Shown piece after piece: positions 35,689-38,616 of a stretch of 64,000 bases of DNA (position 1 is its first letter; the number at the start of each line of letters is the position of its first letter). The notes under the pieces are model-generated. The model was not told the origin of the DNA. It worked only from the letters and a program-made list of their open reading frames with translations, and searched no databases. Source of the stretch: Nostoc sp. (lineage in GTDB: Bacteria; Cyanobacteriota; Cyanobacteriia; Cyanobacteriales; Nostocaceae); contig NZ_JBALEO010000077.1 in the NCBI RefSeq assembly GCF_036918015.1, positions 64,126 to 128,125 on the forward strand. The letters are read 5' to 3'. A program made the position numbers and the translations under genes.

Positions 35689-36585
35689 TCAGTCCACTGC
35701 TATTTGATAAGTTATCAAGCGTGTATCAAGGTCAACAACTACCGTTCCTCCCCGATATTTATCCACCTGTTGCCAAACATCATAGCCCATCAGAATTGCC
35801 TTCTCCCAATCACCCAGCGAACACTGAGAAACTTCTAAATGGGATGTCATATTTTTGATAGTCTTCAATAGTTGGTAATCTAATGTTGAAACGCCTTCTA
35901 AGAAACCGTGATCTTTGGCATAGCTAAATACAAGTGCTGATATACCTTCCTCAATTGCTACTGCACGCCCGCCGTCTTCAACCTCGTCAATACTAGAATT
36001 ACTTTTGCGCTTACATTTAAGAATACTACGAGTGACAACCGACCAACCTAAAACTGCGGCGTAGGAAAAATGGAAAACATCATGAAAGCGGTAGCCATCG
36101 CTTGTATAGGAATTATCGGTGAGGTCATTTCCAATTTGTTCTTTGTTGATAAATGCCTTCATCTTGATTGAGTTATCTTTGCTTATCTCCGTAATTTCTA
36201 CTTCAAACTGTCGTGGTAAACTTTCATTTTCGGGAAAGTCATTGTCGAATATGTAGGTTGTAGCTTTATCATCTATTGGTGCTGAATCTCTCCATCCCCA
36301 ACGGTCACGGCACTTTCTCATATTATCTTCCGCAATTTCTTCCAAATTAAGGTTAAACTTGCTTGCCAAGTTGGAAATATACCAAAGCATATCTCCCAAT
36401 TCTTCCGCGATGCCTTCTTTAAATAGTTTATGTGCATCACCATCGCGTAAATGTTTTTTATACTCAGTCATCAATGAGCCAACTTCACCTATCAAGCCGA
36501 GAAGAGGTATTATTAGTTCAGTACCTTCTACAGCAGGAATCTGGTTTGTATTAAGTGCTTGTGTTTGATACTCAGAAAATTTCAT
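35689..36585 (-). CDS. MazG-like NTP pyrophosphohydrolase fused to a MazG_C-type domain
   Basis: MKFSEYQ, LGLIGEVGSL, EELGDMLWY; C-terminal DGYRFHDVFH, RKS, DEVEDGGRAVAIEEG; GGAGA RBS. Confidence 0.85.
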   Translation of the reverse strand: MKFSEYQTQALNTNQIPAVEGTELIIPLLGLIGEVGSLMTEYKKHLRDGDAHKLFKEGIAEELGDMLWYISNLASKFNLNLEEIAEDNMRKCRDRWGWRDSAPIDDKATTYIFDNDFPENESLPRQFEVEITEISKDNSIKMKAFINKEQIGNDLTDNSYTSDGYRFHDVFHFSYAAVLGWSVVTRSILKCKRKSNSSIDEVEDGGRAVAIEEGISALVFSYAKDHGFLEGVSTLDYQLLKTIKNMTSHLEVSQCSLGDWEKAILMGYDVWQQVDKYRGGTVVVDLDTRLITYQIAVD

Positions 36586-36693
36586 AATGAAACTTCTCCA
36601 ATTTCAAGTTTGTTGATTAAAGCGATTTTTATAGGGATAAAATACAAATATTATGATACTTAAAAAGTATTGCTATTAAAGTTTTAAGTTCAG

Positions 36694-37236
36694 CTATATT
36701 TGTAGGGAAAAATTAGGAAAAATAATTAATTTTGTACTGTCTTCAACTTTAAGATATAGCGGATGGTTTGGGTATCCCTTCTTTGTTAGCTTGAGGCAGT
36801 GAAGAGTTTTTTTACCAGAAATTAGACTTAGCACTTCTTTGTCACGGTCACGGTTATTTCTGGGATACTTACTCGCTCCCCATGCCAAAATAATTAAGTC
36901 AGCGCGTTCTGTTGCTGATTTAATATAAGAGTTATTTTCTAAACCCACAGGATCATTTACTTGATGAAGTTCACGGGGTTTTGGAGTAATATAAGCAAAT
37001 AGATTGACCACTTCAAGAGAACCATAACCCCAAAATTCAGCAAATTTAATACATCTAGTGAGTGTCCTATCATCTTTGTCAGCATCGGCAGTACTTGGGT
37101 TAAGCATCACAAAAGTAACTTGCGGCAAATTCTCAACCCATTTACGCCCTAGTAAATATCGATACTTTTCAGTGCTATCAATCTTGGCATATCCTTTCAT
37201 TTCGATATGTTTTACTCTGAATTGCTGTTTATTCAT
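36694..37236 (-). CDS. DUF1643 domain protein
   Basis: YRYLLGRKW, FVMLNPSTAD, VVNLFAY, LAWG, GYPNHPLY. Confidence 0.88.
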   Translation of the reverse strand: MNKQQFRVKHIEMKGYAKIDSTEKYRYLLGRKWVENLPQVTFVMLNPSTADADKDDRTLTRCIKFAEFWGYGSLEVVNLFAYITPKPRELHQVNDPVGLENNSYIKSATERADLIILAWGASKYPRNNRDRDKEVLSLISGKKTLHCLKLTKKGYPNHPLYLKVEDSTKLIIFPNFSLQI

Positions 37237-37255
37237 GAATAAATAATAGAATGCA

Positions 37256-38443
37256 TCAAAATAGACATAACTGTTGAGATTGTTCTGTATTTACGTTTTG
37301 TAAGGCTTTTAATTTTTTATTCTGAGTCTCTTGCTTATATTTTTTATGCAGTTTTGATATATTATTCGGAATTTCAGATGTTGTTTTTACCAGAGAATCT
37401 AATTGCAAAGATAATTGCTGATAACTACTATTATTGATTTTTTGCAAATTAGGAATATCTAATTTTGGCAATCTCTGTGCTAAACTTTCTTGTACTTTAT
37501 CGTTAATACGCCATTTTGGTGGATAAAAATAATCAATTGGTTGATGCGTTGAAGTAAATTTTGATTTTATCTTTTTGCGATTACTTTTCAAATCAGGAAA
37601 TGCTGCTCGGCAGTATTTATCAGTTTCACAAAATAAATTTTGGCAATCTATAGCTTGTAGCGGACGACCCCAAAGTGATTGAAAATTTAACCCCAAACGC
37701 TGAAATTCTTTCTCTTGGTTTTCAGTCATCCAATGAATAACATCTGTGTATGTTTTACCATCTGTATCAATGAAACACTTGTCGATACCACGTTCGGCTC
37801 CTGGGCCTGCTATAGTAAAACTGTTTTCGTCAAAGTTGATAATTTCACTATAGTTAATATCTGTCGCTAATTGGTAAGCCATAAACTTACCTAGCAATGG
37901 ATATTCTTGAATAATCTTAAAAACGTCTTCAAAATTTTGGGTTTTGACTATGCGTTTAACTACTCTATCTTGGACAACCATTTTATCAATTAATGCCAAA
38001 TGATTCTGGTGTTTTTTATCATAACCAAACTCCTTGCTGGCACAGGACATATACGCACTTGTGTAAATGACATATCCAAGATTCATAGCCTCTTGTAATA
38101 TATCTGAGTATACATTTGAGTCGAAATTAGACAGTGTAATATAATCTCCTATTTTGTTTTCTAAGTATTTCCATGTTTCTATTTTATTAAAGATTTTAAA
38201 TAGTAGAATCCGTAAAATTACTTCTTCTTCATTTTGGCTCCTCTTCTCATCGTAAATTACGTTTTTGATCAGATATTGTGAAACGCGATCGCTTGCTCGA
38301 TATGCATTACAAAATTTATAAGTATTAATAATCGGATCACTCGTCCACGGTGGTGGTAAGTTGTTAATTTTGTTGAAGAATACTTCCTGGCGCGTAGCAG
38401 CAAATCGCCAATAAGTATCAAAAATTTCTTGTCTTACTTGCAT
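37256..38443 (-). CDS. 5-hydroxymethyluracil DNA kinase-like protein (aGPT-Pplase1 family); ORF open to 38554 but ATG 38443 has an AGGAG RBS
   Basis: YWRFAATRQEVF, PWTSDPII..YKFCNAYRASDRVSQYLI, LLFKIFNKIETW, FMAYQLATDINYS, GPGAERG, IDCQNLFCETDKY. Confidence 0.8.
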   Translation of the reverse strand: MQVRQEIFDTYWRFAATRQEVFFNKINNLPPPWTSDPIINTYKFCNAYRASDRVSQYLIKNVIYDEKRSQNEEEVILRILLFKIFNKIETWKYLENKIGDYITLSNFDSNVYSDILQEAMNLGYVIYTSAYMSCASKEFGYDKKHQNHLALIDKMVVQDRVVKRIVKTQNFEDVFKIIQEYPLLGKFMAYQLATDINYSEIINFDENSFTIAGPGAERGIDKCFIDTDGKTYTDVIHWMTENQEKEFQRLGLNFQSLWGRPLQAIDCQNLFCETDKYCRAAFPDLKSNRKKIKSKFTSTHQPIDYFYPPKWRINDKVQESLAQRLPKLDIPNLQKINNSSYQQLSLQLDSLVKTTSEIPNNISKLHKKYKQETQNKKLKALQNVNTEQSQQLCLF

Positions 38444-38616
38444 ACACTTTTCTCCTGGTTTGTCGTCATCATTTTCAAACCTATTTTTTATCCATGAGGC
38501 AAGATTATGCGACAACTGCCGCATAATCTTCGTATCCGATACCATTTCTAGCAAAGCATCCTTAAAGCCGATCGCAGCAACTCTTCTTAACTTTTATCCA
38601 CTGAATAATATGATGT

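What the first reader, a model, noticed from the sequence alone, without database searches (positions are those of the whole stretch)
37256..37500. Disordered tail ending in sliding-clamp-binding-like motifs on the 5hmU-kinase-like protein
Seen: after the conserved domain (ending DYFYPPKWRIN) there is a low-complexity Q/N/K/S tail of about 80 aa containing QQLSLQL and ending QQLCLF-stop. Established: QL[S/D]LF-type pentapeptides, often at the C-terminus, bind the bacterial beta clamp. Inference: the enzyme may be recruited to replication forks and act on newly replicated DNA, which is a mechanistic clue for the operon.
Basis: partly seen in the sequence, partly recalled or inferred. Interest (0 to 1): 0.55.

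Follow-up and report, generated by a model that had tools for sequence, protein, structure and literature searches.

The report
Sliding-clamp tether on DNA-base enzyme
A Nostoc enzyme related to those that phages use to decorate thymine in DNA ends in a floppy tail whose last five residues (QLCLF) look like, and are conserved like, the peptide that docks proteins onto the bacterial sliding clamp, which suggests the enzyme works on DNA as it is being copied.

Summary
The ORF at 37256-38554 (-) has a confidently folded core followed by an 81-aa tail. The tail is 48% Q/N/K/S, is predicted disordered, contains QQLSLQL and ends QQLCLF-stop.

The clamp-binding reading is well supported by comparison, but binding was not tested.
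- In 45 distinct Nostocales tails the linkers vary freely, while Q, L, L of QQLSLE(L) and Q, L, F of QLCLF are invariant.
- Those motif codons carry many synonymous changes, so selection acts on the peptide.
- Independent clades end in their own clamp-motif variants: 89 of 120 actinobacterial homologues end QxxLF-COOH, and 94 of 119 proteobacterial ones end QxxLxL plus at most 5 residues.
- Kinase-fused homologues carry QxxLF in the interdomain linker, and tail-less phage and CPR copies carry none.
- In this genome it is the only ORF of 100 aa or more that ends QLxLF. A UDG and an AlkB-like oxygenase carry QLSLF at their N-termini.

One correction: the protein is not a kinase. It is a stand-alone clade-1 aGPT-Pplase (PF18723) with no P-loop. 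Its best structural match is the phage 5-PmdU glycinyltransferase, followed by HhH DNA glycosylases.

I found no paper linking this family to the clamp. Earlier scan notes on relatives in other genomes did not mention the motif.

The parts
37256..38443 (-). Gene for the stand-alone aGPT-Pplase clade-1 / HMUDK_hel protein (395 aa from ATG MQVRQ; the open frame extends to a TTG at 38554, giving 432 aa)
   Evidence: PF18723 at E 1e-108. The 120 closest homologues are 74-90% identical, and most start at MQVRQ.
37586..38428 (-). Folded core, PF18723 match (residues 43-323 of the 432-aa form). It has a helix-hairpin-helix glycosylase-like fold.
   Evidence: Pfam. (pLDDT above 90); the top fold match is 8z2n, PaMx11 gp46 5-PmdU glycinyltransferase (prob 1.0, E 0.013), followed by AlkA, EndoIII, MutY and OGG.
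37610..37633 (-). FCETDKYC motif. The Cys-Glu pair is nearly invariant in the family. It may correspond to the catalytic Cys/Glu of clade-2 amino-acid:DNA transferases.
   Evidence: C272 and E273 conserved in 90% or more of 128 sequences. (coordinates). PMC8989533, read, describes the essential Cys and Glu in clade 2. The equivalence is inferred, not aligned residue by residue.
37259..37501 (-). Disordered C-terminal tail, 81 aa, Q/N/K/S-rich and basic
37400..37420 (-). Conserved island 1, QQLSLQL (family consensus QQLSLE[L/D]). It fits the hexapeptide clamp motif QLxLxL and may be a second, weaker clamp site.
   Evidence: Q40, L41 and L43 are kept in 45 of 45 tails; synonymous codon variation (CAA/CAG, TTA/TTG/CTA).
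37307..37321 (-). Semi-conserved lysine patch (NKKLK) between the two islands
   Evidence: K73 in 43 of 45 tails and K74 in 39 of 45. Its role is unknown.
37259..37276 (-). Conserved island 2, QQLCLF at the extreme C-terminus: the putative beta-clamp-binding pentapeptide QLCLF
   Evidence: Q and the last L and F in 45 of 45 tails, L2 in 44 of 45, C in 42 of 45; each residue is encoded by 2-5 different codons, and all three stop codons are used; unique in the genome.
36694..37236 (-). DUF1643 gene, the downstream operon partner in Nostocales. Its true start is probably the ATG at about 37200.
   Evidence: It is fused to the aGPT-Pplase domain in another cyanobacterium (L010). Its fold is unresolved: UDG families 4/5 are among tied weak matches at Z 5.0-5.4.
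35689..36585 (-). MazG + MazG_C gene, an operon partner that is also adjacent in Proteobacteria and fused to the family in some lineages

Best explanation
The protein is a stand-alone clade-1 aGPT-Pplase. This is a helix-hairpin-helix, DNA-glycosylase-like enzyme of the family that phages use to process 5-substituted uracil in DNA. It has no kinase domain. A flexible 81-residue C-terminal tail ends in QLCLF, which I read as a beta-clamp-binding motif that plugs into the hydrophobic cleft of DnaN. The upstream QQLSLQL island may occupy the second protomer of the clamp dimer or add avidity. Tethered in this way, the enzyme would ride on clamps loaded on, or left behind on, freshly replicated DNA and scan that DNA for its target base. 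It would act together with the co-encoded MazG-MazG_C (nucleotide pyrophosphatase plus predicted nucleotide kinase) and DUF1643. The patchy, low-GC, island-like distribution and the published defence predictions make surveillance of replicating phage or foreign DNA the likelier purpose, ahead of host self-modification. What is shown: the motif, its disorder context, its conservation, its recurrence across lineages, and the DNA-enzyme fold. What is inferred: binding to DnaN, fork recruitment, the substrate, and a defence role.
For: 1. QLCLF matches the consensus QL(D/S)LF, and clamp motifs typically lie in flexible termini (PMC6511837; PMC4549789).
2. The tail is predicted disordered and does not dock back onto the core.
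3. In 45 distinct Nostocales tails the two islands are invariant while linker positions take 5-10 different residues. Motif codons vary synonymously and all three stop codons occur, so the constraint is on the peptide, not the DNA.
4. Unrelated tails in other phyla end in clamp-type motifs. Actinobacteria: 89 of 120 end QxxLF-COOH. Proteobacteria: 94 of 119 end QxxLxL plus at most 5 residues.
5. Among non-Nostocales tails, 17 of 66 carry a clamp-type pattern in the last 12 residues. Shuffles give a mean of 0.29 and a maximum of 3 in 2000. The genome background is 40 of 5248.
6. P-loop-kinase-fused homologues carry QxxLF 28-43 residues before the core. Across 148 representatives at 50% identity or less there are 9 hits in flanks against 0.67 expected, a density about 12-fold that inside cores.
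7. A cyanobacterial aGPT-Pplase-DUF1643 fusion keeps QELELF in the linker and QLELNF near its new C-terminus.
8. Tail-less copies (Nodularia phage, CPR bacteria, Clostridia) have no motif.
9. In this genome the other terminally placed QLxLF motifs sit on DNA-base repair enzymes, a UDG and an AlkB-like oxygenase.
10. One canonical dnaN is present.
11. The core folds like a DNA-base enzyme.
Against: There is no physical or modelled evidence of binding to DnaN.

Position 3 is Cys, not the usual Ser or Asp, and I know of no validated motif with Cys there.

The clamp-motif consensus has not been defined experimentally for cyanobacteria. The genome gave no good calibrator: no Y-family polymerase was found, and MutS has no recognisable C-terminal motif.

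Island 1 has an acidic residue where the pentapeptide has Phe.

The proteobacterial variant QSTLDLG departs from QLxLxL at position 2.

MazG-fused homologues lack a C-terminal tail. That would also fit a tail whose job is to bind MazG.
Confidence: 0.7

Rival explanations
1. The conserved tail islands are docking peptides for another partner, not for DnaN. The partner could be the operon's own MazG-MazG_C or DUF1643, or a different hub protein.
For: The tailed forms co-occur with a separately encoded MazG-MazG_C in Cyanobacteria, Proteobacteria and Actinobacteria. Homologues fused directly to MazG-MazG_C have no C-terminal tail. Island 1 (QQLSLE[L/D]) is not a textbook pentapeptide.
Against: A partner-specific peptide should not converge on the clamp consensus in each phylum (QLCLF, QxxLF-COOH, QxxLxL). 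It should not recur in the kinase-fused architecture at a different position. It should not be shared with an unrelated UDG and an AlkB-like enzyme of the same genome.
Confidence: 0.13
2. The tail does bind the clamp, but as an effector rather than a tether. When the system is triggered, the exposed motif competes with the replicase for the clamp cleft and stalls replication, in an abortive-infection-like way.
For: It rests on the same motif evidence as the main explanation. Clamp-cleft competition is a known way to stop replication: griselimycin collapses ImuB-clamp complexes (PMC10421592). Two motifs per tail could occupy both clefts of a clamp dimer.
Against: The motif sits on a large, highly conserved enzyme domain with a DNA-base-enzyme fold. 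That fits targeting of a catalytic activity better than simple competition. Nothing suggests the tail is masked or regulated.
Confidence: 0.08
3. The C-terminal hydrophobic peptide is a degradation or stability tag, and the rest of the tail is a neutral low-complexity extension.
For: C-terminal hydrophobic residues can act as protease recognition signals (general knowledge). The tail is AT-rich (27% GC) and compositionally biased.
Against: A degron does not explain the invariant Gln four residues before Phe, the second invariant island, or the motif's survival when extra residues follow it (QLCLFE, QLCLFNVL). It also does not explain the internal linker copies in fused homologues.
Confidence: 0.05
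4. The match is a chance product of a leucine- and glutamine-rich low-complexity tail.
For: The tail holds 13 Leu and 12 Gln in 81 residues, which raises the chance of QL-type words.
Against: Composition-preserving shuffles of homologous tails almost never produce the pattern (mean 0.29 against 17 observed). The motif is invariant across 45 tails with synonymous turnover. It is unique in the genome as a C-terminal QLxLF.
Confidence: 0.02

Closest known systems
Bacterial beta-clamp-binding motifs (QL[S/D]LF pentapeptide, QLxLxL hexapeptide) of DNA polymerases II/IV/V, Hda, MutS/MutL, ligase, and the C-terminal motifs of IS transposases
   Same: A short Q-L-x-L-F peptide at the end of a flexible terminal region of a DNA-acting protein. 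It is conserved while the flanks drift. Lineage-specific variants occur, and some clients carry two motifs (PMC6511837, PMC4549789, PMC10421592).
   Different: The carrier is a DNA-base-modification-type enzyme family not reported as a clamp client in anything I could read. Position 3 is Cys. Binding is untested.
Phage clade-2 aGPT-Pplases, the amino-acid:DNA transferases (M6 gp51, ViI gp247, PaMx11 gp46; PDB 8z2n)
   Same: Best structural match to the core. Both have the HhH glycosylase-like fold and a conserved Cys with a neighbouring Glu (FCETDKYC here). Both act post-replicatively on 5-substituted uracil in DNA (PMC8989533).
   Different: The window protein belongs to clade 1 (PF18723), whose activity is unknown. 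It is cellular and paired with MazG-MazG_C and DUF1643, not with a 5-hmdU kinase, PLP or radical-SAM enzymes. The phage copy examined (Nodularia phage gp177) has no tail or motif, and no phage match extended into the tail.
Phage 5-hmdU DNA kinases (5-HMUDK: M6 gp54, ViI gp67/gp243, SP10 gp186N)
   Same: PF18723 is named after the helical domain fused to the SP10 kinase. Many cellular homologues carry an N-terminal P-loop kinase.
   Different: The window protein has no P-loop and no kinase domain. It should not be called a kinase.
Nucleotide-modification defence candidates of DefensePredictor (aGPT-Pplase / MazG / MazG-C predicted systems; a validated E. coli system with 5-hmU-kinase and thymidylate-synthase domains)
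   Same: The domain set matches: aGPT-Pplase, MazG, MazG-C. The distribution is patchy and island-like (PMC13092281; 14 of 61 related genomes).
   Different: The paper lists the aGPT-Pplase/MazG/MazG-C domains as not experimentally validated. A term search of its text found no mention of the sliding clamp (the only hit for 'clamp' is an author name in the reference list). PADLOC has no model that matches these proteins.
Replication-coupled DNA modification through a sliding clamp in other systems (for example the proposed T4 alpha-glucosyltransferase-gp45 contact)
   Same: The idea is the same: a base-modifying enzyme held at the fork by the clamp so that new DNA is processed at once.
   Different: The T4 contact was not reproduced in a recent preprint (10.64898/2025.12.06.692756). 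Here the motif targets the host beta clamp rather than a phage clamp.

Membership tests
Beta-clamp-binding-motif (CBM) client proteins | A peptide matching QL[S/D]LF, or the looser QxxLxF / QLxLxL | tested here: met
   QLCLF at the C-terminus and QLSLQL internally. Cys replaces Ser/Asp at position 3.
Beta-clamp-binding-motif (CBM) client proteins | The motif lies in a flexible, usually terminal, region | tested here: met
   AlphaFold2 pLDDT is below 50 for residues 339-395 of the 395-aa form, and the motif is the last five residues.
Beta-clamp-binding-motif (CBM) client proteins | The motif is conserved among orthologues while the flanks diverge | tested here: met
   45 distinct tails: Q, L and F in 45 of 45, with linker positions taking 5-10 residue types. 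Motif codons vary synonymously. Lineage-specific equivalents occur in Actinobacteria and Proteobacteria.
Beta-clamp-binding-motif (CBM) client proteins | Physical, motif-dependent binding to the hydrophobic cleft of DnaN | not testable with these tools
   No complex prediction or experiment is available. The cognate DnaN is identified (L018:1501-2664, 387 aa).
Beta-clamp-binding-motif (CBM) client proteins | The carrier acts on DNA | tested here: inconclusive
   The fold matches a DNA glycinyltransferase and HhH DNA glycosylases, but the scores are modest (Foldseek E 0.013, prob 1.0 for 8z2n). No activity is known for clade 1.
[quoted passage not shown] | A P-loop kinase domain with a Walker A motif | tested here: not met
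   No GxxxxGK[ST] in the protein, and Pfam reports only PF18723. The proven kinases are P-loop kinases (PMC8989533).
aGPT-Pplase clade 1 / HMUDK_hel (PF18723) | A full-length match to the family profile above the gathering score | tested here: met
   363 bits against a cut-off of 25; residues 43-323 cover profile positions 2-280 of 281.
aGPT-Pplase clade 1 / HMUDK_hel (PF18723) | Conserved Cys-Glu pair, the putative active site by analogy with clade 2 | tested here: met
   FCETDKYC is present, and C272/E273 are conserved in 90% or more of 128 aligned sequences. Catalytic equivalence to clade 2 is inferred only.
Known anti-phage defence systems (PADLOC models) | A match to a curated defence-system protein model | tested here: not met
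   No PADLOC hit for any of the three operon proteins at E 0.01 or better.

The most novel reading that the evidence does not exclude
The whole cellular branch of the aGPT-Pplase clade-1 family forms a set of replication-coupled DNA-base surveillance or modification systems. This covers the stand-alone, kinase-fused and DUF1643-fused forms. All would be hitched to the host sliding clamp through a movable short motif placed at the C-terminal tail, in the interdomain linker, or at the end of a fused partner. They would inspect or chemically mark DNA the moment it is copied. In particular they could attack phage genomes that replicate with the host clamp and contain 5-hydroxymethyluracil-type bases. 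That would be a defence principle keyed to the replication fork, not to a sequence or a free DNA end.
Probability: 0.3. Interest if true: 0.8.

Novelty: new member of a known kind. Interest (0 to 1): 0.6.

Why it matters
Clade-1 aGPT-Pplases and their MazG-MazG_C partners are widespread in bacteria. The searches found thousands of homologues. They are predicted to be immune genes, yet no mechanism is known.

A conserved clamp-docking peptide gives the first concrete clue to where and when the enzyme acts: on clamp-loaded, newly replicated DNA. It can be tested directly with a peptide, a five-residue truncation and purified DnaN.

It would add a DNA-base-modification enzyme family to the list of beta-clamp clients. 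It would also suggest that some phage defences, or epigenetic systems, are coupled to replication in bacteria, much as PCNA-tethered enzymes are in eukaryotes.

The analysis also corrects an annotation. This protein and its many 'nucleotide kinase domain-containing' relatives contain no kinase domain.

Tried and rejected
1. Chance or low-complexity origin was rejected by shuffles, the genome background and synonymous-codon analysis.
2. DNA-level constraint from the nearby start of the next gene was rejected. Motif codons and the stop codon vary freely, and the DUF1643 start is probably 55 nt downstream, not 19.
3. I looked for calibrating clamp clients in the genome. No Y-family polymerase was found (PF00817), and MutS has no recognisable C-terminal motif. 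This gave no calibration of a cyanobacterial consensus.
4. I tried to define DUF1643. There was no PDB sequence hit. Foldseek found only generic alpha/beta hydrolase-like matches. VIA-align gave a best Z of 5.8, with UDG families 4/5, Toprim, TIR and deoxyribosyltransferase tied. This is inconclusive.
5. NCBIfam and PADLOC gave no hits for the three operon proteins.
6. A search for a Tet/JBP thymine dioxygenase in the genome (PF12851) found nothing, but the control genomes did not ring either, so it is uninformative.
7. Literature: I found no paper connecting aGPT-Pplase, HMUDK_hel, MazG_C or DUF1643 with the sliding clamp. The founding comparative-genomics papers (Iyer et al. 2013; Burroughs et al. 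2015) are not in the held library and could not be checked.
8. A complex prediction of tail plus DnaN was not possible with the available tools and was not attempted by workaround.

Full report
**What is in the window**

The ORF at 37256-38554 on the minus strand encodes 432 aa from a TTG. Most of the 120 closest database homologues (74-90% identity, all Nostocales) begin at the internal MQVRQ. That start is at window 38443 and gives 395 aa.

Pfam finds a single domain, PF18723 (HMUDK_hel), over residues 43-323 at E 1e-108.

- DYFYPPKWRIN is residues 341-351.
- The following 81 residues (window 37259-37501) are 48% Q/N/K/S, against 26% in the core.
- QQLSLQL lies at 37400-37420.
- The protein ends QQLCLF (37259-37276), directly before the stop codon.

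An AlphaFold2 model built on a 128-sequence alignment gives the core pLDDT above 90. The last 57 residues are below 50, so the tail is predicted to be flexible and not packed against the core.

**What the protein is**

It is not a kinase.
- It has no Walker A motif and no domain other than PF18723.
- The experimentally proven 5-hmdU DNA kinases of phages M6, ViI, SP10, PaMx11 and PhiW-14 are P-loop kinases (PMC8989533).
- One source in the protein database names close relatives 'alpha-glutamyl/putrescinyl thymine pyrophosphorylase clade 1'. PF18723 therefore corresponds to the clade-1 aGPT-Pplase. The literature describes this as a helix-hairpin-helix, DNA-glycosylase-like protein, and clade 1 has no known activity (PMC5889632 and PMC8989533).
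- The fold search agrees. The best match to the model is the crystal structure of the PaMx11 5-PmdU glycinyltransferase (8z2n, a clade-2 aGPT-Pplase; prob 1.0, E 0.013). AlkA, EndoIII, MutY and OGG glycosylases follow.
- The nearly invariant FCETDKYC motif contains a Cys with an adjacent Glu. Clade-2 enzymes have such a pair, and both residues are essential there. I infer, but did not show, that the two pairs are equivalent.

Many cellular homologues carry an N-terminal P-loop kinase, and a few are fused C-terminally to MazG-MazG_C.

**Gene context**

In Nostocales the gene is followed by DUF1643 and MazG-MazG_C. In Proteobacteria MazG-MazG_C follows directly. In Actinobacteria a MazG-MazG_C homologue lies about 1-2.5 kb upstream.

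The operon has 27-34% GC against 41% for the window. It occurs in 14 of 61 related genomes.

**Conservation of the tail within Nostocales**

I collected 45 distinct tail DNA sequences from related genomes and aligned them.
- Linker positions typically take 5-10 different residues.
- Island 1 (QQLSLE[L/D]) keeps Q, L and L in 45 of 45 tails.
- Island 2 (QLCLF) keeps Q and the final L and F in 45 of 45, L2 in 44 of 45, and Cys in 42 of 45.
- The codons under these invariant residues vary: CAG/CAA, TTA/TTG/CTA, five different Leu codons at the last Leu, and TTT/TTC. All three stop codons are used.

The constraint therefore acts on the peptide. It does not act on the DNA, for example on a translation-initiation signal of the next gene. 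That gene's true start is in any case probably the ATG near 37200, because 15 orthologues have stop codons upstream of it.

A few orthologues carry one to six residues after the Phe. A free carboxylate is therefore not required, which is compatible with clamp motifs.

**Recurrence in unrelated tails**

The family core ends at PPKW. Many distant members stop there: CPR bacteria, a Clostridia MAG, and the Nodularia phage homologue. Where a tail exists it is not homologous between phyla, yet it ends in a clamp-type motif.

| Clade or architecture | Motif | Count |
|---|---|---|
| Nostocales, stand-alone | QLCLF at the C-terminus | Q, L, F in 45 of 45 tails |
| Actinobacteria, stand-alone | QxxLF-COOH (QAALF, QEALF, QTALF ...) | 89 of 120 (118 distinct tails) |
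| Proteobacteria, stand-alone | QxxLxL plus at most 5 residues (QSTLDLGNS and variants) | 94 of 119 |
| P-loop-kinase-fused forms | QxxLF in the interdomain linker, 28-43 residues before the core | 7 of 25 |
| aGPT-Pplase-DUF1643 fusion (L010) | QELELF in the linker and QLELNF near the new C-terminus | 1 locus |

Three statistical checks support this.
- Among 66 non-Nostocales tails, 17 have such a pattern in the last 12 residues. Composition-preserving shuffles give a mean of 0.29 and a maximum of 3 in 2000. Many of the 17 are related, but they still represent roughly seven or eight separate lineages.
- The background in this genome's ORF C-termini is 40 of 5248.
- Over 148 representatives that are at most 50% identical, QxxLF occurs 9 times in 5,738 flank residues and 5 times in 43,313 core residues. 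Shuffles expect 0.67.

A motif that keeps its consensus while moving between the C-terminus, a linker and the end of a fused partner behaves like a docking peptide for a universal hub. It does not behave like a contact for one particular neighbour.

**Context in this genome**

The protein is the only stop-to-stop ORF of 100 aa or more that ends QLxLF (1 of 8635). There are 28 QLxLF occurrences anywhere in the genome. The ones placed at termini with acidic flanks sit on three proteins:
- a UDG-superfamily glycosylase (N-terminal ETQLSLFDD);
- an AlkB-like 2OG-Fe(II) oxygenase (N-terminal MQQLSLFE);
- an unannotated 283-aa protein (C-terminal SQLDLFGRKVNK).

The internal occurrences sit in an arginase-family enzyme, an AcrB transporter, a KaiB-histidine kinase and an AraC regulator, and look like chance.

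In this Nostoc, terminal QLSLF-type peptides therefore mark DNA-base-processing enzymes. That fits a clamp motif. The genome has one canonical dnaN (387 aa).

**Interpretation**

The published consensus for bacterial clamp-binding motifs is QL(D/S)LF. It shows considerable tolerance and typically lies in flexible termini (PMC6511837; PMC4549789). QLCLF fits, with Cys in place of the nearly isosteric Ser.

The best explanation is that the tail tethers this DNA-base enzyme to the beta clamp. The enzyme, with its MazG-MazG_C and DUF1643 partners, would then act on DNA that is being or has just been replicated. I put this at about 0.7.

Island 1 fits the hexapeptide form QLxLxL in most Nostocaceae, but it has Asp at position 6 in Rivularia- and Calothrix-type sequences. 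It may be a second, weaker clamp site, since the clamp is a dimer with two clefts. It may instead bind something else.

Whether the system defends against phages or marks host DNA cannot be decided here. Three points favour defence:
- the patchy, low-GC distribution;
- the prediction of aGPT-Pplase/MazG/MazG-C systems as defence genes;
- the experimental validation of a related E. coli system that contains a 5-hmU-kinase domain and a thymidylate-synthase domain (PMC13092281).

Nodularia cyanophages encode distant, tail-less homologues. Thymidine-hypermodifying phages may therefore exist in this host range.

**Weaknesses**

- There is no binding evidence of any kind, and no complex model could be made.
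- Cys at position 3 is unusual, and its strong conservation is unexplained.
- The cyanobacterial clamp-motif consensus has not been defined experimentally. The genome offered no polymerase IV or MutS calibrator.
- MazG-fused homologues lack a C-terminal tail. This keeps alive the rival that the tail binds MazG-MazG_C.
- The function of DUF1643 remains unresolved.
- The original comparative-genomics papers on this family could not be read. The statement that the clamp link is unreported rests on the papers I could search.

**Verdict**

This is a new client family for a known docking mechanism. It gives a clear and inexpensive experimental test and a useful mechanistic hint for a class of uncharacterised, probably defensive, nucleotide-modification operons.

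Noticed in passing
L101:1-783 (-) and L102:1-771 (+), own genome contigs C13 and C36: A UDG-superfamily glycosylase and an AlkB-like 2OG-Fe(II) oxygenase of the same genome both carry QLSLF with acidic flanks in their N-terminal extensions (ETQLSLFDD, MQQLSLFE). These may be further clamp clients in Nostoc.
   Followed up: partly
L104:1-849 (-), own genome contig C85: An unannotated 283-aa protein with no Pfam match ends SQLDLFGRKVNK. This is a clamp-type motif near the C-terminus.
   Followed up: no
window 37200-37236: The DUF1643 ORF is listed from the ATG at 37236. In 15 orthologues the frame upstream of the equivalent of Met13 (MKGYAK) contains a stop, so the real start is probably near 37200. 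The gap to the upstream gene is then about 55 nt, not 19.
   Followed up: partly
L010 (G038 contig C89), 630-aa open frame: A cyanobacterial fusion of the aGPT-Pplase clade-1 domain with DUF1643 keeps QELELF in the linker and has QLELNF near the C-terminus of the fused protein. A tail-less paralogue (340 aa) lies next to it.
   Followed up: partly
L114:3998-4957 (+), Nodularia phage vB_NspS-kac65v151 gp177: Nine Nodularia cyanophage records encode a distant (27% identity) homologue of the core. In the one examined (gp177, 319 aa) there is no tail and no clamp motif. These phages of Nostocales may hypermodify thymidine.
   Followed up: partly
L045, L049, L051, L059, L062, L070: Several Nostoc and Cuspidothrix genomes keep the syntenic gene but have lost DUF1643 and MazG-MazG_C. 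Their aGPT-Pplase gene is truncated before or within the tail, so these are decayed copies of the operon.
   Followed up: no
window 35689-38443: The three-gene operon has 27-34% GC against 41% for the window, and it sits between Uma2-family genes and a TPR gene. This is consistent with horizontal acquisition.
   Followed up: partly
window 37265-37267 (Cys codon of QLCLF): The Cys at position 3 of the terminal motif is conserved in 42 of 45 distinct tails. That position is normally Ser or Asp and tolerant to change. No explanation.
   Followed up: no
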